Shown one piece after another: positions 4,773-35,170 of a stretch of 64,000 bases of DNA. The stretch lies in NCBI GenBank assembly GCA_000004985.1, contig GG738924.1; one strand, 5' to 3'. Each line of letters begins with the position of its first letter. Position 1 is the stretch's first letter. A program made the translations under genes and the position numbers. This DNA comes from Naegleria gruberi (taxonomy: Eukaryota). The notes below the pieces were generated by a model that was given only the letters and a program-made list of their open reading frames with translations, was not told where the DNA came from and made no database searches.

Positions 4773-4834
4773 TAAATTAATAGAAAATAATTGGTTCATT
4801 GCAGCAAGATTCTAAGGTTATTAAGGAAAACACT

Positions 4835-4925
4835 GGTGAGATGGTCGAGTGGTCTAAGACGACACGTTAAGGTATGATTAATACCGTGTTCCGCAAGGGC
4901 GTGGGTTCAAATCCCACTCTCATCA
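4835..4925 (+). tRNA. tRNA-Leu(AAG) with an 11-nt intron 3' of position 37
   Basis: Acceptor stem GGTGAGA/TCTCATC, D-arm GTC-GAGTGGTCTAA-GAC, and anticodon stem ACACG/CGTGT. The loop reads TTAAGG[intron TATGATTAATA]C. It has a long variable arm TCCGCAAGGGCGT (class II) and T-arm GTGGG-TTCAAAT-CCCAC. Confidence 0.8.
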
Positions 4926-4989
4926 AATTTTGCTTTAGGAATTGATTGGAAACTAATAAGGCTCTTGATATTTAATTAAATTTCGTTAA

Positions 4990-5001
4990 TTAAGGCAAGA
5001 A
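4990..5001 (+). promoter_or_regulatory. Conserved ATTAAGG(C/A)AAGAA element immediately 5' of tRNA-Ala. The same motif precedes the other tRNAs at 4821-4830, 6298-6309 and 7284-7295.
   Basis: All four tRNA genes, including the unrelated tRNA-Leu, are preceded within 1-5 nt by TTAAGG(A/C)AA(A/G)AA. Confidence 0.35.
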
Positions 5002-5007
5002 GGGGTT

Positions 5008-5038
<31 letters not shown>

Positions 5039-5074
5039 TGCAGAAGGTCTAGGGTTCGATTCCCTATGACTCCA
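5002..5074 (+). tRNA. tRNA-Ala(UGC)
   Basis: GGGGTTATAGCTCAGTTGGTAGAGCGTCTGCTTTGCATGCAGAAGGTCTAGGGTTCGATTCCCTATGACTCCA. It forms a cloverleaf with anticodon TGC and the G3:U70 alanine identity pair. A T-run lies downstream. Confidence 0.9.
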
Positions 5075-5496
5075 ATTTTACCCCATTCGTTGTTTTTATT
5101 GGCCAAATATGTATTATTATATTACTTATCGATTTCATACCCAATACTCTATTATTTCGATGGTTTGAGTGTCAAATCCAACCACTATGAATACTGAGAG
5201 TTGATCTTGGAGTTTTTGGAATTGTTGGAGATGACAACCTTGAACTTTTAAAAAGAAGTGAAAAGACTTGATATTGAAATATAAACATTGAATAGTTTAT
5301 TAACCACTTTTAGATTGTTATGAATTCAAAGTCAATCTATCGCTCATTTTTTTGTATACAAACATTGTAAACTCTGATTTCGATTACTTTCAACAATGAG
5401 TAATTATATTATTAGAAACGTGATTACTAAAAACAATTCAAAAAGCACGTTTCAGAAATTCCCAACAAGAAACAACTTTAAAACAAACAATTCTAA

Positions 5497-5859
5497 ATGG
5501 CAATCACCAGAATCACAGAAATTTGGGTCGTTTCCTACACTATCCAACACAGAAAAACAGAAGTTTCATCCTGTTGCGTTCTAATCCTCTGGATCATCCT
5601 TACATGCATTTCCATTCAAGCAATCTACACTGCATGCGATCAAATTCAAAACAATCCTAAAGATAAAACATTTGGTGATCCAGTTACTGCTATAATCATC
5701 TGGTCAGGGATCTTGGCAATGTTGACATGTTGTTGCTGTTCATGTTGTTGTGGGGTGGTTTGGAAATGTATTAGAAATCCAGTTTCTAATAATTTGCGTA
5801 AAAATAATGGTATGGATGAGAATGCCAACAGTGGATATTATCAGAGTGCTGAATGTTGA
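5497..5859 (+). CDS. Hypothetical small membrane protein with a CCCCSCCC cysteine cluster (possible palmitoylation cluster)
   Basis: 120-aa ORF from a true ATG with two hydrophobic segments. I did not recognise any homology. Confidence 0.35.
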   Translation: MAITRITEIWVVSYTIQHRKTEVSSCCVLILWIILTCISIQAIYTACDQIQNNPKDKTFGDPVTAIIIWSGILAMLTCCCCSCCCGVVWKCIRNPVSNNLRKNNGMDENANSGYYQSAEC

Positions 5860-6309
5860 AGAGGGAAGTTTCGAATGAAAATTGTAAATATACTGTATTC
5901 CAAAAACTAATAAATAAAATTCTAATAAAATAGATCAATTCATAACTGAGGAGTGTTCTACTCATTGGCGAATATTACAAGTTTCCACAATGAAAGAATA
6001 AAAGTTCTTAAAACTAAAAACTTTGCCAAAAATAAATTATAAATTGTTAATATTTCTTCATTCTCATCAAATACTTTTTCAAGATGATCCTCCTTATCAG
6101 CTTTGGAATTTCCTTTAATGAGAGGAAGAACAACTGTTTTCAATGAAGCCGTTCCAGAAATTTTTTGGTTGATGGGCACTCAATATGATCTAATGGTAAC
6201 ATGTATTGTTTTGGAGCATTTTTCTTTCTTTTAGTATTCTACTTGCAATACTTGCAAGAAGACTAAGGCTATAAATGAACTCATTTATAAATCCTAATTA
6301 AGGAAAGAA

Positions 6310-6315
6310 GGGGTT

Positions 6316-6346
<31 letters not shown>

Positions 6347-6382
6347 TGCAGAAGGTCTAGGGTTCGATTCCCTATGACTCCA
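6310..6382 (+). tRNA. tRNA-Ala(UGC), copy 2
   Basis: Identical 73-nt sequence to 5002-5074. Confidence 0.9.
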
Positions 6383-6514
6383 ATTTTGGTCCCATTAGTT
6401 ATTTTTTATTGAGGCATGCAAGAAGAACATATGGGAAGCGTAATTGGATTGTGGGCTGATTTCACAATCTTAAAAAATCCACAACACAACTGACTCAACA
6501 CTTCACAGGATACA

Positions 6515-7243
6515 ATGAATGGATCTCTCATCAGTAACACCCAGACAATAAAATCCTCCTCTCAATACGCAACACCAAAGAAGATATCCAAAGACACTGA
6601 AGTAAAATGTGAGTTACTGTTTTTATTACCAAATCTTATTCAATGATCTTCTTTTCGGTATTCAATCGTTATTATCTTTGTTCATCACACTTCTAAATTA
6701 CTATTATGAACAGTCTGTAAAGGATACATGAACAAGTTGGGAGCCATTGATACTTGTACAGCAAATATTGGAGGAAATATCATGGTTAGGCAAATTCAGA
6801 AACATCACACTCTCAATCTGATGGCTGTGACAAAAACCGTCGATACTTCTCCGCCTTGGTCATATAGACAGCATCAGTCACCCAAAACCAATACCATTCA
6901 GCAAGTAAATATGATGAGAGCCTCCTTAAATACTACAAGTCCACTAGCAAAGCAAAAATCGTCTAGCAATTTTGAAAAGCTGGATTTAAAGTAGGTTTTC
7001 CAATTGAATCTTATCTCATACTGTTATTTATTGATCAATAGTAAGGAAAATATGATTGATATTGAACAGGAGTTGGACGAACATGATCAGATCATTTACA
7101 AAAACTTTATGGAAATGTTGTCAAAGAGAAAATGTTTTGCAGATGCTCAAATATTGGCAACAATTGCATTGGGAAAGGTTGAAGAAGAATGGGCAGAAAA
7201 ACAACAAATTCCACCATCACAACATGAAGAAATAAATTCGTAA
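6515..7243 (+). CDS. Hypothetical protein, three exons (6515-6608, 6714-6990, 7042-7243). It is paralog 1 of a tRNA-Ala-linked tandem gene pair.
   Basis: Exon 1 encodes MNGSLISNTQ...DTEVK and ends in phase 1 at a GTGAGT donor. The acceptor is GAACAG. Exon 2 encodes (F)CKGYMNKLGAIDTCTANIGG...KLDL, then a GTAGGT donor and CAATAG acceptor. Exon 3 begins NKENMIDIEQELDEHDQIIYKNF. The same exon structure and sequence similarity recur at 7646-9014. Confidence 0.5.
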
Positions 7244-7295
7244 ACTCTAAGATGGTTAATGCATATATTGATCGATTTTAATATTAAGGCAAGAA

Positions 7296-7301
7296 GGGGT
7301 T

Positions 7302-7332
<31 letters not shown>

Positions 7333-7368
7333 TGCAGAAGGTCTAGGGTTCGATTCCCTATGACTCCA
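7296..7368 (+). tRNA. tRNA-Ala(UGC), copy 3
   Basis: Identical 73-nt sequence to 5002-5074. Confidence 0.9.
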
Positions 7369-7645
7369 ATTTTTTTGTTCCGTGAGTACACTCGAATTGT
7401 ATTCTTAATTAACTCTCTTATTCTGAAATAACATTTCAACAATGGTAATGCTTTCTACGTCAATCCAAGGCATTGAGATTTTGTTAAAAGAGAGACGCGA
7501 ACAGTTGATTTAATGGTAATAATCGATTCAGTGGAGAAAGACATTCCAAACATAACGGAAAAAGTTTACGATTTTGTAGTTGGTAGTTTTAAGGGCAACA
7601 ACGATAAAACAGGAGATAGAGAAAATAAAATACAAATAGAAACAA

Positions 7646-9014
7646 ATGAATGGAACCACTACCTCACAGAGTACAAGAAATAACAACAGCAACAACAACA
7701 ACAACAATAACAAGAATAAGAACAATGAGGTTAAAGGTAAGGAAAATGAAGCATATTCATCCCATTAATTTATAAATTGATTTTGTTATTTCAAATAATA
7801 CAAATTTGAAAATATATTGTTTTACGTCATCTCTATGAAATTATTGATTGTTATCCTAATAATACAATATAAAGTATGTCGGAGCTATATGAATAAATTG
7901 GGAACAATTGATGCTTGTACAGCAAACATTGGAGGTAGTATTATGATCGATCAAATCAAGAAGAACCACACTGTAAATATGATGTCCATGAAGAAACGTG
8001 TGGATAATGAATTACCTTGGTCTTATAGGAATGTACCAGCTAATTTCAATTTAAATCGTAGAGTGAGTCCTCTGAAGAAACCAAAAACACTCTCACCAAT
8101 TAATACCAAAGACAATAGAATGGCCACTTTATCAAGCACTCAACAACATCGAGGAGCACACACTGAAAGAGGAGGCTCTAAGAGTAAATTAGATCTGTCG
8201 TAAGTTTCATAATGCTTTGATGGTTTGCTCAATATAATTTCCTTAAACATCATTTGCTGATATTACATGATAATACTATTATAATTTCAATTTACATTGT
8301 TATCAACAAATAATTATTTAAATATAATTTAACAGAAAGGACAATAAGATTGACCCTGTTCAAATATTGGAAGAACCAGAAGATCAGGAAATTTACGAAA
8401 AATTCCTCGATTTACTGAGGAGGAGAAAGACCATTGAGGAGGCTAGAAAGATAGCTTCCTCTGTCTTTTTGGAAGCCGAAGAGCAAATGCTCTTAGGAGC
8501 TTACAGTGGAGTACCTCAATATGTTGAAGGATTTATAAGTAAGGATGACGAACATCAAACCCCTAATGAAGATCTTGAAGAAGATAGAACCCTAGAGAAC
8601 CATGCACAAGAATCAGAAGCTAAGGAAGAAGAATTAAATGAAGGCCAGTACGAAACATCATTTGCAACACTGGAAGAACACGAAGAGAGTATCTCCAATC
8701 CATATGAAGACAACTCTAATCCATACGATGAAGATAACACAATTGAGGAAGGTAAACCTGAGGTGACTGGAAAGTATAAGGAAAAGTCTGGAAAGATTTG
8801 GGTTGTCACAGCTTCCACTGCATCAGCATTTGAGTTGTTCAATGAGAAGGATGGAAGAAAGGCTGAAGGTAAATATATTAAGGATTCCTCAGGAAATTAT
8901 TCCATCACTTTTACTTTCCATGATCCTAATGGTGATGCTGTTTTAACCTCTGTGACATCGAACCTTAACACGATTCCTCTCAGTAATGGAGATGCCTTCA
9001 CAAAAGTTGAATAA
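7646..9014 (+). CDS. Hypothetical protein, three exons (7646-7736, 7875-8199, 8336-9014), paralog 2 of the tandem pair
   Basis: Exon 1 encodes MNGTTTSQSTRNNNSNNNNNNNKNKNNEVK, with a coding (CAA)n/poly-Asn stretch, and ends at a GTAAGG donor. Exon 2 encodes (V)CRSYMNKLGTIDACTANIGG...KLDL and ends at a GTAAGT donor. Exon 3 begins (S)KDNKIDPVQILEEPEDQEIYEKFLDLL. It is collinear with 6515-7243. Confidence 0.5.
7684..7712 (+). repeat. (CAA)n trinucleotide microsatellite, coding for poly-Asn inside exon 1 of gene 7646-9014
   Basis: The run is aacaacagcaacaacaacaacaacaataac. The antisense poly-Leu ORF 7528-7725 in the track is an artefact of this repeat. Confidence 0.7.
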
Positions 9015-11694: not shown

Positions 11695-12534
11695 TTACAC
11701 CTTTGCTCCATAGTACTCACTGCTCAACCTTTCTTGATAAAATTCTTCTGAAAATTCAAGGTAGAAACCATTTGATCTTACAGCTTCTAACTGGACTTGC
11801 TTGTTCATTTTCAAGATAAAAGGAAGATATTTCAAAGCTAGACCATTCTGTTGTACTGCCATCATTGCTAGCTCTTCTGAAATCAAGTTGTCTTCAATAT
11901 TGCAAACCACCAAACCATTGGTAGAGATCGCCTCTCTGATGAAACTTTCGTCATACTGGTGAGGATTGTTCCAAAAAGTTGCATTATTATATTTGATCAG
12001 TTCCAAATACATGTATCTATCTTCCCAACATGAAAATTCTGGAATAAAAAAGTTAATACGTCCACCTTTAGCAGCATACAAAACAATTTCCTTATCCAAT
12101 CTCAAGTTAAGTGAAAGACATTTGTAATTATGTGGATTCGTTTTCATAATGTGGAGTGCTAACTCTCTATCATTTCGTAAATCGCTCGACAAATAATCAA
12201 CAATAAAACATTGTTCATCCATTTTCTGCTCACAAAGTTCAAATATGAAATCTCTCTCGCTCAATATCGTATTTCTGGTGGAATGGAATTGTTCTGGAAG
12301 CTTTTCCAACATGGAAGGTTTTTTCAAGAGTGCAATTTTGAGAATTTCATCATCCATATAGTTAGCATAATGAACAGAATAGGGATTATGTTTAACTGCC
12401 TCTAATATAACCTCCCTGTCACATTTCAATAGATCTGATGCATATCTAAGGCATGATTGACCAGACACTAGTGGTTTATCGCATCTTACAGCCAGTAAAA
12501 CTATTTCTCTATCATTTTTCATTTCTCCACTCAA
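11695..12534 (-). CDS. DUF4116-like repeat protein, probably the 3' part of the gene that starts at 15055 (see the gap finding)
   Basis: Repeats fit the DUF4116 consensus (NDREIVLxAVxxNGxxLxY): MKNDREIVLLAVRCD, DREVILEAVKHNPYSV, DKEIVLYAAKGG, EELAMMAVQQNGLALKYL, QVQLEAVRSNGFYLEF. The first 71 aa are identical to an internal segment of ORF 14035-15055. Confidence 0.5.
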   Translation of the reverse strand: MSGEMKNDREIVLLAVRCDKPLVSGQSCLRYASDLLKCDREVILEAVKHNPYSVHYANYMDDEILKIALLKKPSMLEKLPEQFHSTRNTILSERDFIFELCEQKMDEQCFIVDYLSSDLRNDRELALHIMKTNPHNYKCLSLNLRLDKEIVLYAAKGGRINFFIPEFSCWEDRYMYLELIKYNNATFWNNPHQYDESFIREAISTNGLVVCNIEDNLISEELAMMAVQQNGLALKYLPFILKMNKQVQLEAVRSNGFYLEFSEEFYQERLSSEYYGAKV

Positions 12535-12539
12535 ATATT
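12327..12539. repeat. 213-bp near-identical direct repeat, copy A (copy B is at 14035-14247). The two copies flank the scaffold gap.
   Basis: The aligned sequence runs agagtgcaattttgagaatttcatcatcc...ctccactcaaatatt and differs from copy B at only two positions. Confidence 0.8.
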
Positions 12540-13984
12540 GAGGTCATTCAAAAATTAAGTGTTTTTCAACACAAGCAATACACAAATTTTTTTAGTGGTA
12601 ATTGGATTCATTTTTGTTTGTGTTGTGTGTTTGTGTTTTGGCCATTAAAATTACACATACAATACATATTTTTATTCATCGATATCCATGAGATCTGCGA
12701 GAATTAATTTAGTCTTCACTGCGTATTGGGTATTCGTTTAAATAAATATTCGTTAAAATTGCACAAACCAACACAATTACTGGTTGACAACTAATGGAAT
12801 GCCTAAAAAGTTTTGCTAATATTTGAAATCGCTTTAGAAATGCATTTGTGATTTCAATTATAACTCTTTCATATTTCTGTTCATAATTTAGGTAAGATCC
12901 ATCACTCATAGGTTCAATCAGTTTTCCAGGAATTGAGTTGACCGAAAATCCACTGTCAACATTAACTTTGAATTTTGGATTCTTTTGTACTGCTTTATGA
13001 AGTCCAGATAATTTTAAAACAGTGTTATCATTCATTGAACCTCTAAAACCAATACTAATATGTGCTATTATTCCTGTTCTGTAAGTGGTAATTTGTGTGA
13101 TTAGGTCATGTCTTTTATCTTTTCGGTAATTTAAATGTTGAAGATAATTTGTTCTTGAATGTTTGAAGTGTGTAAATAAAGATTTATATCCTTTAAAGCA
13201 GGTTCCAAGGTTGATTCACCATATGGTGTCTCAATCCTTGAGCTTTTAATCCATTTGTCTTAATTTATTATTTTATTATTTTGTGGTTTTAAAAACATGT
13301 GTTAGATTAGTATTTAACAAAGGATGAGTTAATAAATTATCATCATGTAATTTGATAGTTTGACTTGTTATGTTAGTAGCAATATTAGTTAAAATATGAG
13401 GCAAATCAATACTTAATGTTGATAAACTAATACCAAACATTAAACTAATCCAAGTATTAGCAACACCACCCTTTAAATACATTAAAGCAGCTAATAATCA
13501 ATCTTCATTACTTAAAAGTCTTCTTTCTTTCTGTTATTAAATGATTTATGCTTTGATTAATTTAAATTGTGATATTGTTACTCCTGTCAAAGATAAGAAC
13601 AATCCTTTATCTTATTGAAGAACGGAAGTATTGATTCTTTGTATTCTATTTGTTGAAAATCAATGTGAATCTATTAAACCTTCTTTTTGTAGTGTAAATA
13701 GGATCAAATATTAAAGGAGGTGGAATATTAATTAAGTTTAAAATATTATATATTAATTCAAGTTCAGAATTACTGCAACTTGTTATTAGTAATTGTTCTT
13801 TTATAATTAGTAATAGTTTGTTTTGTTTTTGAGAAGATGAAGAATAATTTCTTCCGATAATGGTGTACCATTAATTGGAGGAGGATTTAAAATATCTTGT
13901 GTAACATTTAACAAGTCCTCCAGTATTTGTTGTGTCGAAGGTGATGGTAGTTGTGTCATTTTTTTTCCATTTAGATTTTTTAAT

Positions 13985-14034
13985 NNNNNNNNNNNNNNNN
14001 NNNNNNNNNNNNNNNNNNNNNNNNNNNNNNNNNN
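13985..14034. other. Assembly/scaffold gap (50 N)
   Basis: A run of 50 n characters. The track ORFs that translate across it (XXXX) are not real. Confidence 0.99.
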
Positions 14035-15055
14035 AGAGCGCAATTTTGAGAATTTCATCATCCATATAGTTAGCATAATGAACAGAATAGGGATTATGTT
14101 TAACTGCCTCTAATATAACCTCCCTGTCACATTTCAATAGATCTGATGCATATCTAAGGCATGATTGACCAGATACTAGTGGTTTATCGCATCTTACAGC
14201 CAGTAAAACTATTTCTCTATCATTTTTCATTTCTCCACTCAAATATTCCAAGCACATACTATTTGATTTCAAAGCGAGGAAAACAATTTCTCTATCCAAT
14301 CTAAACTCGGATGGAGTTTTTGCTATTATATTTCCATTTCGTTTAACAGCTTCTATCACAATATCCCTGTCAGTTGACCATCTTTTTTCTAAATCTCTCA
14401 ATACCAAACCATCAACCCTGACTGCTTTTAAAATCATTTCCCTATCATTCTTCAGATCATTATTTGCAAAATTTAATGAAAACCCATTGTACTTCACACA
14501 TTCTTCTATTATTAATCTATCACTTCTCACTTTCTCAGTTGCCAACTCTAAGAGAAGTAAAACATTCTTTTCTACCAATCCCTCAAATTTAACAATCTCT
14601 AAAAAGTGCTTTTTATCATCAAATACAGCTCTCATTGATGGATAATATGTCATCAATCTATTTAATATATCTTCTTCTAACAAATGTGCATGACTCTTTA
14701 GGAAATTGGCCACAAATTTCGTGTCATTCATTGTATTTTCCAAAGCCAATACTTGCTTTGAATCCACTCTATCGGTCCACAATAAATATTCCAAAGCAAT
14801 ATCAACATCCAACTTTAACATTGGATCAATCATTTCATAAACCATTTGAGGATTATTCTTCATATTTTCAATGATGAATGATTTATCTTTGGCATATTCT
14901 ATGGGAAAATATTCGTATGATTTTTCCATTCGAACAAACCATAACAGTTTGCCAAATTGTTGGCTTTCAAATTTGAATTTTAAATATTGGAAAGTTGGTT
15001 GAGTGGTGATGGGACGATCCGTAAGAATAATTGTAACTGGTTCTAACTCTGACAT
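14035..15055 (-). CDS. DUF4116-like repeat protein, 5' part. The ATG is at 15055 and the ORF is open down to the gap.
   Basis: The repeats NDREMILKAVRVDGLVLRDL, DRDIVIEAVKRNGNIIAK and DREIVFLALKSNSMCLEYLSGEMKNDREIVLLAVRCD are followed by the 213-bp segment identical to 12327-12539. Confidence 0.5.
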
Positions 15056-23430: not shown

Positions 23431-24779
23431 GTGAAATAGTTTAATTTATTTTGTTATTAATATTTCTCACGTATTACTAAGAATCTGTTAACAAATTCAG
23501 TTAATTTACAAGGTTTTGATGATTGGCTTTGATGGCTTTTTACATGTCTTTCTCTTGATACAAATCTTCTTCTTGATTGACTTGCAACACTTTTTCTTTC
23601 CACCAACTAATTTGAATTTCTTACAAATCTTCTTTCCCTTTGAACGTTTCAAACACTTCTTATAATACTTCTTCTTGATACATCTTGGTGGAATGACAAT
23701 TGACTTGGCACAATACTTCTTCTTGTTATATTTCACACATTTGGAAATAGTCTTCTTGTGTTTACAGAACTTGATAGTCTTATGTTTGGCACAGAAGAAT
23801 TTCTTCTTAATGAGACAACATTTCTTAATGGATTTTCTCTCCTTACAATATTTAACCTTCTTATACTTGGCACATTTCTTTGCCCATGAAACAATCTTGC
23901 ACTTTTTAACATATCTACATTTGGCAATCTTCTTATTATAGGAATCAACAGTATACTTATCACAGACTTTCTTCTTTTCACACTTCTTGATTGGAACCTT
24001 CTTGAATTTCTTACAGATCTTCTTGCAACCCTTCTTGACACACTTGTTGACAATCTTGTGTTTGGCACAGAATTTCTTGAAACCCTTCTTAATACAAATC
24101 TTCTTAGTTCCATAAGAATCACAAACTTTCCAATACTTCTTCTTGGCACATCCAACAGTCTTGTATGCATGCAAGACACACTTCTTTGTTGCCTTACTGT
24201 ACTTGTCACATTTGGAATATTTCTTATGTTTGAGACATTTACCAGCACCGACAATTGCATATTGATCACAGACCTTCTTTTGACCGACGAGTTTGTGTTT
24301 CAAACACTTCTTAATCCACTTGTGCTTTAAGCATTTTCTCTTACAAATTCTTGGTTTGTGATACTTGTCAACTACGACAACTGGAGGTTTGGTTTGATAG
24401 CTGTCACTTGCTTGAACTGAGAGGATTGCAAGTAAAAGTAGAATTGCAATTGAAAAGATTAGATTTGTTTTCATTTTTTTGTTGGATAGTAAAGTTCAAA
24501 CACATGGTGCTAATTTAAACCATTTCGAATAGTTTTTCATTTGGAACAAACTCAAAAAGTTAGATGTAAGGTTCCAAATTTGGATGGAAATCTGATTTCC
24601 CTAATGAAACCTTCACTGATTCAATCTACTAATTTACTTTTCAAATATCAACTCATATTTCAAATTTAAATAATGTTATATGATTCGTACATTACAATTA
24701 ATTCAAGTTCTTCTTTCACTTTCAAGGTTTAATGCCTTCTTTTGTGTTTCTATTGAATGAGTAATTCATTAAAAATCTT
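23431..24779. repeat. Segmental duplication copy 1 (~1.35 kb). Its copy is at 33841-35170 in the same orientation.
   Basis: The aligned block starts at gtgaaatagtttaatttattttgttattaatatttctcacgt, runs through the K/C-rich gene and its 5' flank, and ends at ttcaaggtttaatg...tgaatgagtaattcattaaaaatcttt. Only a few substitutions and indels are present. Confidence 0.85.
23506..24474 (-). CDS. Secreted, extremely Lys/Cys-rich basic protein (322 aa), copy 1
   Basis: It starts with a signal peptide MKTNLIFSIAILLLLAILSVQA. The mature part is about 30% Lys and 15% Cys, with reiterated CxKHK, KKC and CAKxK units. The long antisense ORFs in the track are codon-periodicity artefacts. Confidence 0.6.
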   Translation of the reverse strand: MKTNLIFSIAILLLLAILSVQASDSYQTKPPVVVVDKYHKPRICKRKCLKHKWIKKCLKHKLVGQKKVCDQYAIVGAGKCLKHKKYSKCDKYSKATKKCVLHAYKTVGCAKKKYWKVCDSYGTKKICIKKGFKKFCAKHKIVNKCVKKGCKKICKKFKKVPIKKCEKKKVCDKYTVDSYNKKIAKCRYVKKCKIVSWAKKCAKYKKVKYCKERKSIKKCCLIKKKFFCAKHKTIKFCKHKKTISKCVKYNKKKYCAKSIVIPPRCIKKKYYKKCLKRSKGKKICKKFKLVGGKKKCCKSIKKKICIKRKTCKKPSKPIIKTL

Positions 24780-33840: not shown

Positions 33841-35170
33841 GTGAAATAGTTTAATTTATTTTGTTATTAATATTTCTCACGTGTTACTGAGAGTGTGTAA
33901 GTAAATGCCATTAATTTACAAGGATGGTTTAACGATTGGCTTTGATGACTTTTTACATGTCTTTCTCTTGATACAAATCTTCTTCTTGATTGACTTGCAA
34001 CACTTCTTCTTTCCACCAACTAATTTGAATTTCTTACAAATCTTCTTTCCCTTTGAACGTTTCAAACACTTCTTATAATACTTCTTCTTGATACATCTTG
34101 GTGGAATGATAATTGACTTGGCACAATACTTCTTCTTGTTATATTTCACACATTTGGAAATAGTCTTCTTGTGCTTACAGAACTTGATGGTCTTATGTTT
34201 GGCACAGAAGAATTTCTTCTTAATGAGACAACATTTCTTAATGGATTTTCTCTCCTTACAATATTTAACCTTCTTATACTTGGCACATTTCTTTGCCCAT
34301 GAAACAATCTTGCACTTTTTAACATATCTACATTTGGCAACCTTCTTATTATAGGAATCAACAGTGTACTTATCACAGACTTTCTTCTTTTCACACTTCT
34401 TGATTGGAACCTTCTTGAATTTCTTACAGACCTTCTTATATCCCTTCTTGACGCACTTGTTGACAATCTTGTACTTGGCACAGAATTTCTTGAAACCCTT
34501 CTTGATACAAATCTTCTTAGTTCCATAAGAATCACAAACCTTCCAATACTTCTTCTTGGCACATCCAACAGTCTTGTATGCATGTAAGACACACTTCTTT
34601 GTTGCCTTACTGTACTTGTCACATTTGGAATATTTCTTATGTTTGAGACATTTTCCAGCACCGACAATTGCATATTGATCACAGACCTTCTTTTGACCGA
34701 CGAGTTTGTGTTTTAAACACTTCTTAATCCACTTGTGCTTTAAACATTTTCTCTTACAAATTCTTGGTTTGTGATACTTGTCAACAACTGGAGGTTTGGT
34801 TTGATAGCTGTCACTTGCTTGAACTGAGAGGACTGCAAGCAAGAGTAGAATTGCAATTGAAAAGATTAGATTTGTTTTCATTTTTTTTTGTTGGATAGTA
34901 AAGTTCAAACACATGGTGCTAATTTAAACCATTTCGAATAGTTTTTCATTTGGAACAAACTCAAAAAGTTAGATGTAAGGTTCCAAATTTGGATGGAAAT
35001 CTGATTTCCCCTAATGAAACCTTCACTGATTCAATCTACTTAATATCAACTCATATTTCAAATTTAAATAATGTTATATGATTCGTACATTACAATTAAT
35101 TCAAGTTCTTCTTTCACATTCAAGGTTTAATGAGACCTTCTTTTGTGTTTCTATTGAATGAGTAATTCAT
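33841..35170. repeat. Segmental duplication copy 2. It overlaps the 3' end of gene 35120-37663.
   Basis: See copy 1. In this copy the right end of the repeat coincides with the last ~17 codons (ERFLMNYSFNRNTKEGLIKP*) of the adjacent large gene. Confidence 0.85.
33916..34881 (-). CDS. Secreted Lys/Cys-rich basic protein, copy 2 (start at MKTNLIF)
   Basis: It differs from copy 1 by a 2-aa indel (PPVVVVDK in copy 1, PPVVDK here), a few substitutions and the C-terminal residues. The 5' poly-T differs (9 T here, 7 T in copy 1), which explains the spurious upstream ATG in the track. Confidence 0.6.
   Translation of the reverse strand: MKTNLIFSIAILLLLAVLSVQASDSYQTKPPVVDKYHKPRICKRKCLKHKWIKKCLKHKLVGQKKVCDQYAIVGAGKCLKHKKYSKCDKYSKATKKCVLHAYKTVGCAKKKYWKVCDSYGTKKICIKKGFKKFCAKYKIVNKCVKKGYKKVCKKFKKVPIKKCEKKKVCDKYTVDSYNKKVAKCRYVKKCKIVSWAKKCAKYKKVKYCKERKSIKKCCLIKKKFFCAKHKTIKFCKHKKTISKCVKYNKKKYCAKSIIIPPRCIKKKYYKKCLKRSKGKKICKKFKLVGGKKKCCKSIKKKICIKRKTCKKSSKPIVKPSL

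What the first reader, a model, noticed from the sequence alone, without database searches (positions are those of the whole stretch)
4821..9014. tRNA cluster sharing an upstream TTAAGGNAAGAA element, with tandem duplication of a tRNA-Ala plus three-exon gene unit
Four tRNA genes sit within 2.6 kb: one tRNA-Leu(AAG) with an intron and three identical tRNA-Ala(UGC). Each is preceded 1-5 nt upstream by the motif TTAAGG(A/C)AA(A/G)AA (4821, 4990, 6298, 7284) and followed by a short T-run. Two of the tRNA-Ala copies are each followed ~130-280 bp downstream by a three-exon gene (6515-7243 and 7646-9014).

The two genes are clearly paralogous. Exon 1 reads MNG...EVK in both. Exon 2 reads CKGYMNKLGAIDTCTANIGG in one and CRSYMNKLGTIDACTANIGG in the other. 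Exon 3 reads KENMIDIEQELDEHDQIIYKNF in one and KDNKIDPVQILEEPEDQEIYEKF in the other. Intron positions and phases are identical. The duplicated unit therefore appears to include the tRNA and its upstream motif.

The upstream motif on an unrelated tRNA-Leu argues that it is a functional Pol III upstream element (TATA-like or lineage-specific) rather than only a duplication scar.
Basis: seen in the sequence. Interest (0 to 1): 0.55.

Follow-up and report, generated by a model that had tools for sequence, protein, structure and literature searches.

The report
Conserved box upstream of Naegleria tRNAs
In this piece of the amoeba Naegleria gruberi's genome, all four tRNA genes carry the same short sequence (ATTAAGG-A/C-AA) immediately upstream, and a related environmental amoeba shows it on two more tRNA types, so it is probably a lineage-specific start signal for RNA polymerase III, although no genome-wide test could be run here.

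Summary
One intron-containing tRNA-Leu(AAG) and three identical tRNA-Ala(UGC) genes lie at 4835-7368. Each ends in a T-run and each is preceded by ATTAAGGMAA, with TTAAGG at -14 for Leu and -12 for Ala.

Genes A and B are real paralogues (38% identity, E 7e-38). They share intron positions and phases, and the annotated N. lovaniensis orthologue of B has the same structure.

Outside a 93-nt core (about -15 to +78), the three Ala loci are no more alike than random DNA. Either the box is maintained by selection, or it belongs to the copied or converted unit. The "tRNA plus gene" duplication rests on gene order alone, and the N. lovaniensis locus has no tRNA.

A Naegleria-related metagenome contig carries tRNA-Gly(GCC) with ATTAAGGCAAGAA abutting +1. 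Its neighbouring tRNA-Ile(AAU), which the search did not select, has boxes at -24 and -14, close to the -23/-14 layout of Leu. The box is not enriched upstream of protein-coding genes.

Best reading: a Pol III initiation-region element specific to this lineage, related in position to the plant/yeast CAA motif. A genome-wide test was not possible with these tools.

The parts
4812..4817 (+). Distal CTAAGG box, at -23 from tRNA-Leu +1
   Evidence: The same two-box layout (-24/-14) occurs upstream of tRNA-Ile in L114.
4820..4834 (+). Proximal box ATTAAGGAAAACACT upstream of tRNA-Leu (TTAAGG at -14)
4835..4925 (+). tRNA-Leu(AAG). The 11-nt intron is at 4873-4883 under canonical 37/38 placement; ARAGORN places it one nt later. 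A TTTT terminator lies at 4928-4931.
   Evidence: (48.3 bits)
4989..5001 (+). Box ATTAAGGCAAGAA abutting tRNA-Ala copy 1
5002..5074 (+). tRNA-Ala(UGC) copy 1, with TTTT at 5076-5079
   Evidence: (72.2 bits)
6297..6309 (+). Box ATTAAGGAAAGAA abutting tRNA-Ala copy 2
6310..6382 (+). tRNA-Ala(UGC) copy 2, with TTTT at 6384-6387
6515..7243 (+). Gene A: three exons (6515-6608, 6714-6990, 7042-7243), 190 aa, no Pfam domain. No matching N. gruberi protein model was returned by the database search run with gene B.
7283..7295 (+). Box ATTAAGGCAAGAA abutting tRNA-Ala copy 3
7296..7368 (+). tRNA-Ala(UGC) copy 3, with a T7 run at 7370-7376
7646..9014 (+). Gene B: three exons (7646-7736, 7875-8199, 8336-9014), 364 aa. 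It is the orthologue of N. lovaniensis C9374_008770, which has the same intron positions and phases.

Best explanation
The four genes are ordinary nuclear tRNA genes of Naegleria gruberi. [quoted passage not shown]

The ATTAAGG-M-AA box just upstream (TTAAGG at -12 or -14 from the mature 5' end, sometimes with a second YTAAGG about 10 bp further up) is a selected cis-element of the Naegleria lineage that is specific to tRNA genes. Its position overlaps the region where Pol III normally begins transcription. The most likely role is therefore an initiator or promoter-proximal element that fixes or boosts the start site. The start would fall at the CAA/AAA just downstream, as with the plant and yeast CAA motif. 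The box could also help TFIIIB or Pol III open the DNA.

What is shown: the tRNA identities, the positional conservation across Leu, Ala, Gly and Ile, the decay of all other flanking similarity to random, and the specificity to tRNA genes.

What is inferred: that the element acts on transcription initiation, and which factor reads it.

Separately, tRNA-Ala -> gene A -> tRNA-Ala -> gene B most likely reflects an old tandem duplication of a tRNA-plus-gene unit. This is inferred from gene order only.
For: - Organism: window proteins match N. gruberi NEG-M exactly.
- tRNAs and terminators.
- All 4 tRNAs in the window carry ATTAAGGMAA. There are 5 YTAAGG boxes in 120 nt of tRNA upstream sequence against about 0.04 expected. 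Upstream of 26 protein-coding ORFs there are 3 in 3.9 kb against 1.6 expected.
- The three Ala loci share only a 93-nt repeat. In-register identity is 0.17-0.36 elsewhere in the flanks, against a random expectation of 0.277, but 0.92-1.0 at -13..-1.
- Metagenome contig L114 carries a BTB-domain ORF whose only named homologues are from N. fowleri and N. lovaniensis, at 43% identity. The same sequence was assembled independently in an ENA metagenome (L125).
- On L114, tRNA-Gly(GCC) has ATTAAGGCAAGAA abutting +1. The unselected neighbour tRNA-Ile(AAU) has TTAAGG at -24 and CTAAGG at -14, close to the -23/-14 layout of the window's Leu.
- CAA lies at -6..-4 in Ala1, Ala3 and Gly. This matches the plant/yeast CAA motif position of -7..-3 (PMC3082873).
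- The leader is unpaired in 5 of 7 predicted pre-tRNA folds, which gives no support to an RNA-structure role.
Against: - Only seven genes and four or five isotypes were seen. The Gly and Glu hits were selected by the motif itself.
Even the exact 13-mer occurs by chance before bacterial tRNAs.
- No N. fowleri or N. lovaniensis tRNA locus could be examined: 63 kb fetched held none. Conservation across named species is therefore untested.
- There is no transcription-start or functional data.
- Ala2, Leu, Ile and Glu lack the CAA triplet.
- The conserved core of the Ala copies (about -15 to the T-run) coincides with what a primary transcript would span. Copying or gene conversion of that unit could explain the identity among the Ala copies without selection on the DNA.
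Confidence: 0.55

Rival explanations
1. The box acts at the RNA level. It is part of a transcribed 5' leader (start at or upstream of -13) and is recognised during pre-tRNA maturation, for example by RNase P/PRORP, a La-like chaperone or a quality-control factor. It does not act as a DNA promoter element.
For: Conservation among the Ala copies begins sharply at about -13/-15 and ends in the T-run, which is the extent expected of a primary transcript. The A-rich end of the leader (GAA) could pair with the U-rich trailer.
Against: Predicted folds leave the leader unpaired in 5 of 7 genes and show no common structure. Pol III leaders are usually shorter than 13 nt (background knowledge, not tested here). 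The second YTAAGG box at -23/-24 in Leu and Ile, about one helical turn upstream, fits a DNA-binding site better than a leader.
Confidence: 0.15
2. Duplication scar or concerted evolution only. The box is carried along with tRNA copies by local duplication, gene conversion or retroposition of the primary transcript. Its presence before Leu, Gly and Ile is coincidence or ascertainment bias.
For: The three Ala copies are clearly copies of one another. N. gruberi has an expanded set of 924 tDNAs (PMC2888827). The Gly and Glu cases were found by searching for the motif. Chance motif-plus-tRNA hits do exist in very large databases.
Against: Leu in the window and Ile in L114 were not selected for the motif, yet each has an exact or near-exact box at the same offsets. 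My estimate of the chance of this is about 1e-4 per gene, calculated from base composition (the 30-nt expectation for YTAAGG is). Different isotypes cannot inherit a shared leader by copying. One Ala copy differs inside the box (C to A) while the tRNA stays identical, and everything beyond the core has decayed to random.
Confidence: 0.15
3. The three tRNA-Ala genes arrived independently, or by a tRNA-only local duplication, in the intergenic regions of an already duplicated gene pair. In that case there was never a tRNA-plus-gene unit.
For: The two units share no DNA similarity beyond the 93-nt core. The spacers differ (132 versus 277 nt). A third identical Ala copy at 5002 is followed by an unrelated gene. 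The N. lovaniensis orthologue of gene B has no tRNA within 10 kb. Gene B is 70% identical to that orthologue but only 38% identical to gene A, so the gene duplication may predate the species split.
Against: The same isoacceptor, in the same orientation, lies immediately upstream of both paralogues. A single unit duplication explains this most simply. After divergence to 38% protein identity, neutral spacers would be expected to be unalignable anyway.
Confidence: 0.35

Closest known systems
Plant and budding-yeast tRNA gene upstream signature: TATA-like element at about -35/-29 plus a CAA motif at -7..-3 (PMC3082873; Yukawa et al. 2000 as cited there)
   Same: A short conserved sequence lies immediately upstream of the mature 5' end and is shared across different tRNA isotypes. 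Ala1, Ala3 and Gly carry CAA at -6..-4, the same place as the plant/yeast CAA start-site motif. The upstream region is AT-rich.
   Different: The dominant conserved part is ATTAAGG at -13..-7, which has no counterpart in plants or yeast. There is no consistent TATA box near -30: none in Leu or Gly. CAA is replaced by AAA, ACA or other triplets in four of the seven genes. Some genes have a second YTAAGG box about 10 bp upstream.
S. pombe tRNA/5S genes, which require an upstream TATA box (mentioned in the abstract of PMC11547032)
   Same: An upstream sequence element is shared across a lineage's type 2 Pol III genes in addition to the internal promoter.
   Different: Both position (-30 versus -12) and sequence differ. 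TTAAGG is not a TATA box and lies too close to the gene to place TBP in the usual register.
Type 3 Pol III promoters (PSE plus TATA, SNAPc-dependent; U6-type)
   Same: An external, sequence-specific upstream element for Pol III.
   Different: A PSE sits near -55 with a TATA at -30, and such genes lack internal A/B boxes. Here the A/B boxes are intact and the element is at -12/-14.
Isoacceptor-specific upstream motifs of animal tRNA genes (PMC3082873)
   Same: Copies of one isoacceptor share their immediate upstream sequence, as the three Ala copies do.
   Different: Here the same box is shared between different isotypes (Leu, Ala, Gly, Ile). That is the plant-like, genome-wide pattern, not the animal family-specific pattern.

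Membership tests
Eukaryotic nuclear tRNA genes (type 2 Pol III units) | Cloverleaf scoring above the Rfam RF00005 gathering threshold | tested here: met
   72.2 bits for each of the three Ala copies and 48.3 bits for Leu, against a threshold of 29. ARAGORN gives the same isotypes.
Eukaryotic nuclear tRNA genes (type 2 Pol III units) | Internal A box (TRGCNNAGTGG-like) and B box (GGTTCGANTCC-like) | tested here: met
   Ala has TAGCTCAGTTGG and GGTTCGATTCC. Leu has TGGTCGAGTGG and GGTTCAAATCC (consensus from background knowledge).
Eukaryotic nuclear tRNA genes (type 2 Pol III units) | No encoded CCA, and an oligo-T terminator just downstream | tested here: met
   The trailers are AATTTT, ATTTT, ATTTT and ATTTTTTT.
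Eukaryotic nuclear tRNA genes (type 2 Pol III units) | Any intron lies in the anticodon loop, 3' of position 37 | tested here: met
   The 11-nt intron in Leu(AAG) can be placed at the canonical 37/38 position, giving the loop TTAAGGC.
Plant/yeast-type upstream tRNA promoter signature (TATA + CAA) | The same motif at a fixed offset upstream of many different isoacceptor families genome-wide | tested here: inconclusive
   Seen on Leu and Ala in the window and on Gly and Ile in L114, possibly also on Glu in L118. The genome-wide set could not be reached: N. gruberi is not on record in the assembly index.
Plant/yeast-type upstream tRNA promoter signature (TATA + CAA) | CAA triplet at about -7..-3 | tested here: inconclusive
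   Present at -6..-4 in Ala1, Ala3 and Gly. Absent in Ala2 (AAA), Leu, Ile and Glu.
Plant/yeast-type upstream tRNA promoter signature (TATA + CAA) | TATA-like element at about -35..-29 | tested here: not met
   TATA-like strings occur upstream of the Ala copies only. There is none in Leu or Gly at -40..-20. In a genome with 33% GC, AT-rich runs carry little information.
Plant/yeast-type upstream tRNA promoter signature (TATA + CAA) | Mutation of the motif changes Pol III transcription or start-site choice | not testable with these tools
   Needs in vitro transcription, transfection or pre-tRNA 5'-end mapping.
Type 3 (PSE/TATA) external Pol III promoter | PSE near -55 plus TATA near -30, with no internal A/B boxes | tested here: not met
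   The element is at -12/-14 and the genes have intact A/B boxes.
Tandem segmental duplication of a tRNA + gene unit | Paralogous genes with shared exon-intron structure in the same order and orientation | tested here: met
   38% identity, E 7e-38, intron phases 1 and 2 in both. The same structure is found in the N. lovaniensis orthologue.
Tandem segmental duplication of a tRNA + gene unit | Residual DNA similarity spanning the tRNA, the spacer and the gene | tested here: not met
   Only the 93-nt tRNA core repeats. The spacers are at random identity.

The most novel reading that the evidence does not exclude
Naegleria, and perhaps Heterolobosea more widely, may use a near-obligatory external YTAAGG box at -12/-14, sometimes doubled one helical turn upstream, on most of its tRNA genes. 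N. gruberi has an unusually large set of about 924. Such a box would be read by a lineage-specific factor or an adapted TFIIIB subunit. It would be a Pol III core-promoter element of a sequence and position not described in any other eukaryote.
Probability: 0.3. Interest if true: 0.6.

Novelty: new variant of a known kind. Interest (0 to 1): 0.45.

Why it matters
Shared upstream consensus sequences for tRNA genes are documented in few lineages. The abstract of PMC11547032 names only some plants and S. pombe.

A sharply defined, position-fixed box in a discobid amoeba would add an independent example. It would give a handle on how TFIIIB and Pol III choose start sites in a deeply branching eukaryote. 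It would help separate functional tDNAs from pseudogenes among the roughly 924 N. gruberi predictions. It would also supply a compact Pol III promoter for expressing guide RNA or other small RNAs in Naegleria, a genus that includes the pathogen N. fowleri.

The tRNA-plus-gene duplication itself is ordinary.

Tried and rejected
- Fetching more N. gruberi DNA. Exact look-ups of RPB2, PNPOx and P0011 showed that the assembly is not in the position index.
- Cross-species footprinting through orthologues. The N. lovaniensis locus of gene B (L001) and the N. fowleri and N. lovaniensis loci of the L114 BTB gene (L122, L123) hold no tRNA in 63 kb. tRNA positions are evidently not syntenic.
- Orthologue of the C2-domain gene next to tRNA-Leu. 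Only the N. gruberi protein itself was found.
- Metagenome scan with motif plus a generic tRNA pattern. It stopped at 120 loci, nearly all chance prokaryotic hits. Many are tRNA-Ser/Leu whose own 5' end (GGAAAG...) overlaps the pattern, or yeast and insect tRNAs. Only L114 is Naegleria-related.
- Contig L118, with tRNA-Glu and ATTAAGGAAAGTA. Its origin could not be established. The single ORF is a P-loop NTPase with only sub-threshold family matches and no PDB relative. It is not counted as evidence.
- Viral-contig and prokaryote-genome scans returned only phage and bacterial chance hits. In some of these the box overlaps a TATAAT -10 element.
- General promoter element: rejected. YTAAGG is not enriched upstream of 26 ORFs, and the six other ATTAAGGAAA sites in the window have no tRNA downstream; most lie within long ORFs, sense or antisense.
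- TTAA-target transposon: considered and rejected. There is no matching TTAA or repeat on the 3' side.
- Literature searches for the motif or for Naegleria Pol III promoters found nothing relevant.
- Pfam gives no domain for genes A, B or P0010.


Full report
**Origin of the window.** Seven of ten long single-exon ORFs match proteins of Naegleria gruberi strain NEG-M exactly. They include RPB2 (XP_002669613) and a PNPOx-type pyridoxal 5'-phosphate synthase, all from one 196,593-bp scaffold. GC content is 31-37%. The finding therefore concerns nuclear genes of a heterolobosean amoeba.

**Checking the observation: tRNA genes.** ARAGORN and Rfam each find exactly four tRNA genes in the 64 kb, all on the + strand.
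- With intron search switched on, the first is tRNA-Leu(AAG) at 4835-4925, with an 11-nt intron in the anticodon loop.
- The other three, at 5002-5074, 6310-6382 and 7296-7368, are identical tRNA-Ala(UGC).
- All four have recognisable A and B boxes, no encoded CCA, and a run of at least four T starting 1-3 nt after the discriminator base.

**Checking the observation: the motif.** ATTAAGGMAA precedes all four genes, at 4820, 4989, 6297 and 7283.
The Leu version reads TTAAGGAAAACA.
- TTAAGG begins at -12 for Ala and at -14 for Leu. Leu also has a second CTAAGG box at -23.
- Six further ATTAAGGAAA sites in the window have no tRNA downstream. Most lie within long ORFs, sense or antisense, so they probably reflect codon content (ATT AAG GAA = Ile-Lys-Glu).

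**Specificity of the motif.** YTAAGG occurs five times in the 4 x 30 nt upstream of the tRNAs. About 0.04 occurrences are expected from its density in the window. In 3.9 kb upstream of 26 protein-coding ORFs it occurs three times against 1.6 expected. It is therefore not a general promoter word in this genome.

**The paralogous genes.**
- Gene A splices as 6515-6608/6714-6990/7042-7243 and encodes 190 aa. Gene B splices as 7646-7736/7875-8199/8336-9014 and encodes 364 aa.
- All four introns are GT..AG. In both genes the first intron is phase 1 (after ...EVK) and the second is phase 2 (after ...LDL). The proteins align end to end over gene A at 38% identity, E 7e-38.
- Searching the protein database with gene B returned no N. 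gruberi model for either gene. The only relatives are N. lovaniensis C9374_008770 (70% identical to B) and an N. gruberi thioredoxin-domain 'membrane protein' that shares only B's C-terminal domain.
- The independently annotated N. lovaniensis gene has the same three exons, with introns at the same positions and phases.
- No Pfam domain is detected in A, B or the N. lovaniensis protein.

**Is the tRNA plus gene a duplicated unit?** The gene order (Ala, gene A, Ala, gene B) suggests it, but the DNA no longer shows it.
- The only repeat shared by the three Ala loci is 93 nt long: 15 nt upstream, the 73-nt tRNA and 5 nt downstream.
- In-register identity in every other flank segment is 0.17-0.36, against a random expectation of 0.277. 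An alignment shows nothing more.
- Gene B is 70% identical to its N. lovaniensis orthologue but only 38% identical to gene A, and A is 41% identical to that orthologue. Either the gene duplication is old or gene A evolves fast.
- The N. lovaniensis locus has one gene of this family and no tRNA within 10 kb on either side.
- A unit duplication remains the simplest reading of the gene order. Independent arrival of the tRNAs cannot be excluded.

**What the decay of the flanks implies for the box.** Everything neutral around the Ala copies has randomised, yet -13..-1 is 92-100% identical. There is one C/A difference inside the box while the tRNA itself stays identical. Two explanations fit:
- selection on the box, or
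- copying or gene conversion of a unit that runs from about -15 to the T-run, which is the span expected of a primary transcript.

**Independent tRNA genes from elsewhere.**
- The N. gruberi assembly could not be reached with the contig look-up.
Nearly all were chance hits in bacteria, archaea, yeast or insects.
- One hit is informative. L114 (Ga0247722_10058881; 1473 bp; 36% GC) carries a BTB-domain ORF whose only named homologues are N. fowleri and N. lovaniensis proteins at 43% identity. The same sequence was assembled independently in an ENA metagenome (L125).
- L114 holds two eukaryote-type tRNA genes without encoded CCA and with T-runs. tRNA-Gly(GCC) has ATTAAGGCAAGAA abutting +1, the same 13-mer as Ala copies 1 and 3.
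- The second gene, tRNA-Ile(AAU), lies 87 nt upstream and was not selected by the search pattern. It has TTAAGG at -24 and CTAAGG at -14. The window's tRNA-Leu has boxes at -23 and -14, so two unselected genes of different isotype in two organisms share a two-box layout at nearly the same offsets.
- From base composition I estimate about 1e-4 as the chance of an exact ATTAAGGMAA in the 30 nt before a given tRNA. This figure is my own calculation.
- A further hit, L118, has tRNA-Glu(CUC) preceded by ATTAAGGAAAGTA. Its origin could not be established, so I do not count it.
- Scans of viral contigs and of prokaryotic genomes gave only chance hits. These show that even the exact 13-mer can precede a bacterial tRNA by accident in a very large database. 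The weight therefore rests on L114's Naegleria affinity and on its unselected neighbour, not on the Gly hit alone.

**Limits of the cross-species test.** The syntenic loci in N. lovaniensis (L001, L123) and N. fowleri (L122) total 63 kb and contain no tRNA by ARAGORN or Rfam. Whether those species use the box is unknown. N. gruberi is reported to have 924 tDNAs (PMC2888827), so the seven genes seen here are under 1% of the set.

**Mechanism.**
- The box occupies -13..-4 relative to the mature 5' end. From general knowledge of Pol III, TFIIIB sits further upstream and transcription usually begins a few to about ten nucleotides before the mature end. The box therefore overlaps the expected start region, not a TATA position.
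- Its 3' part is CAA at -6..-4 in Ala1, Ala3 and Gly. Plants and yeast have a conserved CAA motif at -7..-3 that cooperates with an upstream TATA box (PMC3082873).
- No consistent TATA-like element is present near -30: none in Leu or Gly.
- Predicted folds of leader-tRNA-trailer leave the leader unpaired in five of seven genes and show no shared structure.
- I therefore favour a DNA-level initiator or promoter-proximal element (confidence about 0.55). Less likely are a leader or processing signal (about 0.15) and a pure copying artefact (about 0.15).
Nothing here shows which factor it is.

**Comparison with known systems and novelty.**
- The tRNA genes themselves are ordinary type 2 Pol III units, and all their defining features were met.
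- The closest known analogue of the box is the plant/yeast TATA-plus-CAA signature. The box shares its position and partly its CAA triplet, but not the ATTAAGG core, and there is no TATA.
- It is not a type 3 PSE promoter.
- Full-text searches for the motif, and for Naegleria Pol III or tRNA promoters, found no description of it. This is absence from the held library, not proof of novelty.
- I rate it a new variant of a known kind and moderately interesting. The decisive genome-wide motif survey is simple to run but was outside these tools.

Noticed in passing
window 23431-24734 and 33841-35132: A segment of about 1.3 kb is duplicated 10.4 kb apart. Repeat blocks are 88-100% identical (97-100% within the gene). 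Each copy carries a minus-strand gene for a 322/332-aa lysine- and cysteine-rich protein with an N-terminal signal-like sequence. This duplication is far more recent than the gene A/B pair.
   Followed up: partly
window 11695-15055 (minus strand): Two ORFs share a 99% identical 213-nt repeat (12327-12539 and 14035-14247). One translation contains a run of X, meaning N bases, so there is an assembly gap. The repeat may be partly an assembly artefact.
   Followed up: no
window 8740-9014 (C-terminal domain of gene B): The last 90 or so residues of gene B are 84% identical to the C-terminus of an N. gruberi thioredoxin-domain 'membrane protein' (P0011) on another scaffold. The N. lovaniensis orthologue of B lacks this domain, which suggests recent domain shuffling.
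   Followed up: partly
window 6515-7243 and 7646-9014: A protein-database search with gene B returned no N. gruberi model for either gene, although B has an annotated N. lovaniensis orthologue. Both genes are probably missing from the NEG-M annotation.
   Followed up: partly
window 4867-4872: The anticodon loop of tRNA-Leu(AAG) itself reads TTAAGG, the same hexamer as the upstream box. This follows from the AAG anticodon and is almost certainly coincidental.
   Followed up: no
L118 1322-1406 (Ga0209617_10072503): An AT-rich 1.4-kb metagenome contig of unknown origin has a eukaryote-type tRNA-Glu(CUC) preceded by ATTAAGGAAAGTA. Next to it is an intron-less P-loop NTPase ORF with weak similarity to packaging or terminase ATPases. 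It could come from a relative of Naegleria or from a virus of such a host.
   Followed up: partly
L134/L136 (Poribacteria MAGs) and L133 (Bacteroidetes MAG): Bacterial tRNA genes can carry the exact ATTAAGGMAAGAA 13-mer directly upstream. In Poribacteria it overlaps a TATAAT -10 box. This warns that a motif-plus-tRNA hit in a very large database is not evidence on its own.
   Followed up: yes
L001, L122, L123 compared with the window: tRNA gene positions are not conserved between N. gruberi (or the L114 organism) and N. lovaniensis or N. fowleri, although the protein-coding neighbours are syntenic between the latter two. This fits lineage-specific tDNA expansion or turnover in N. gruberi (924 tDNAs reported).
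   Followed up: partly
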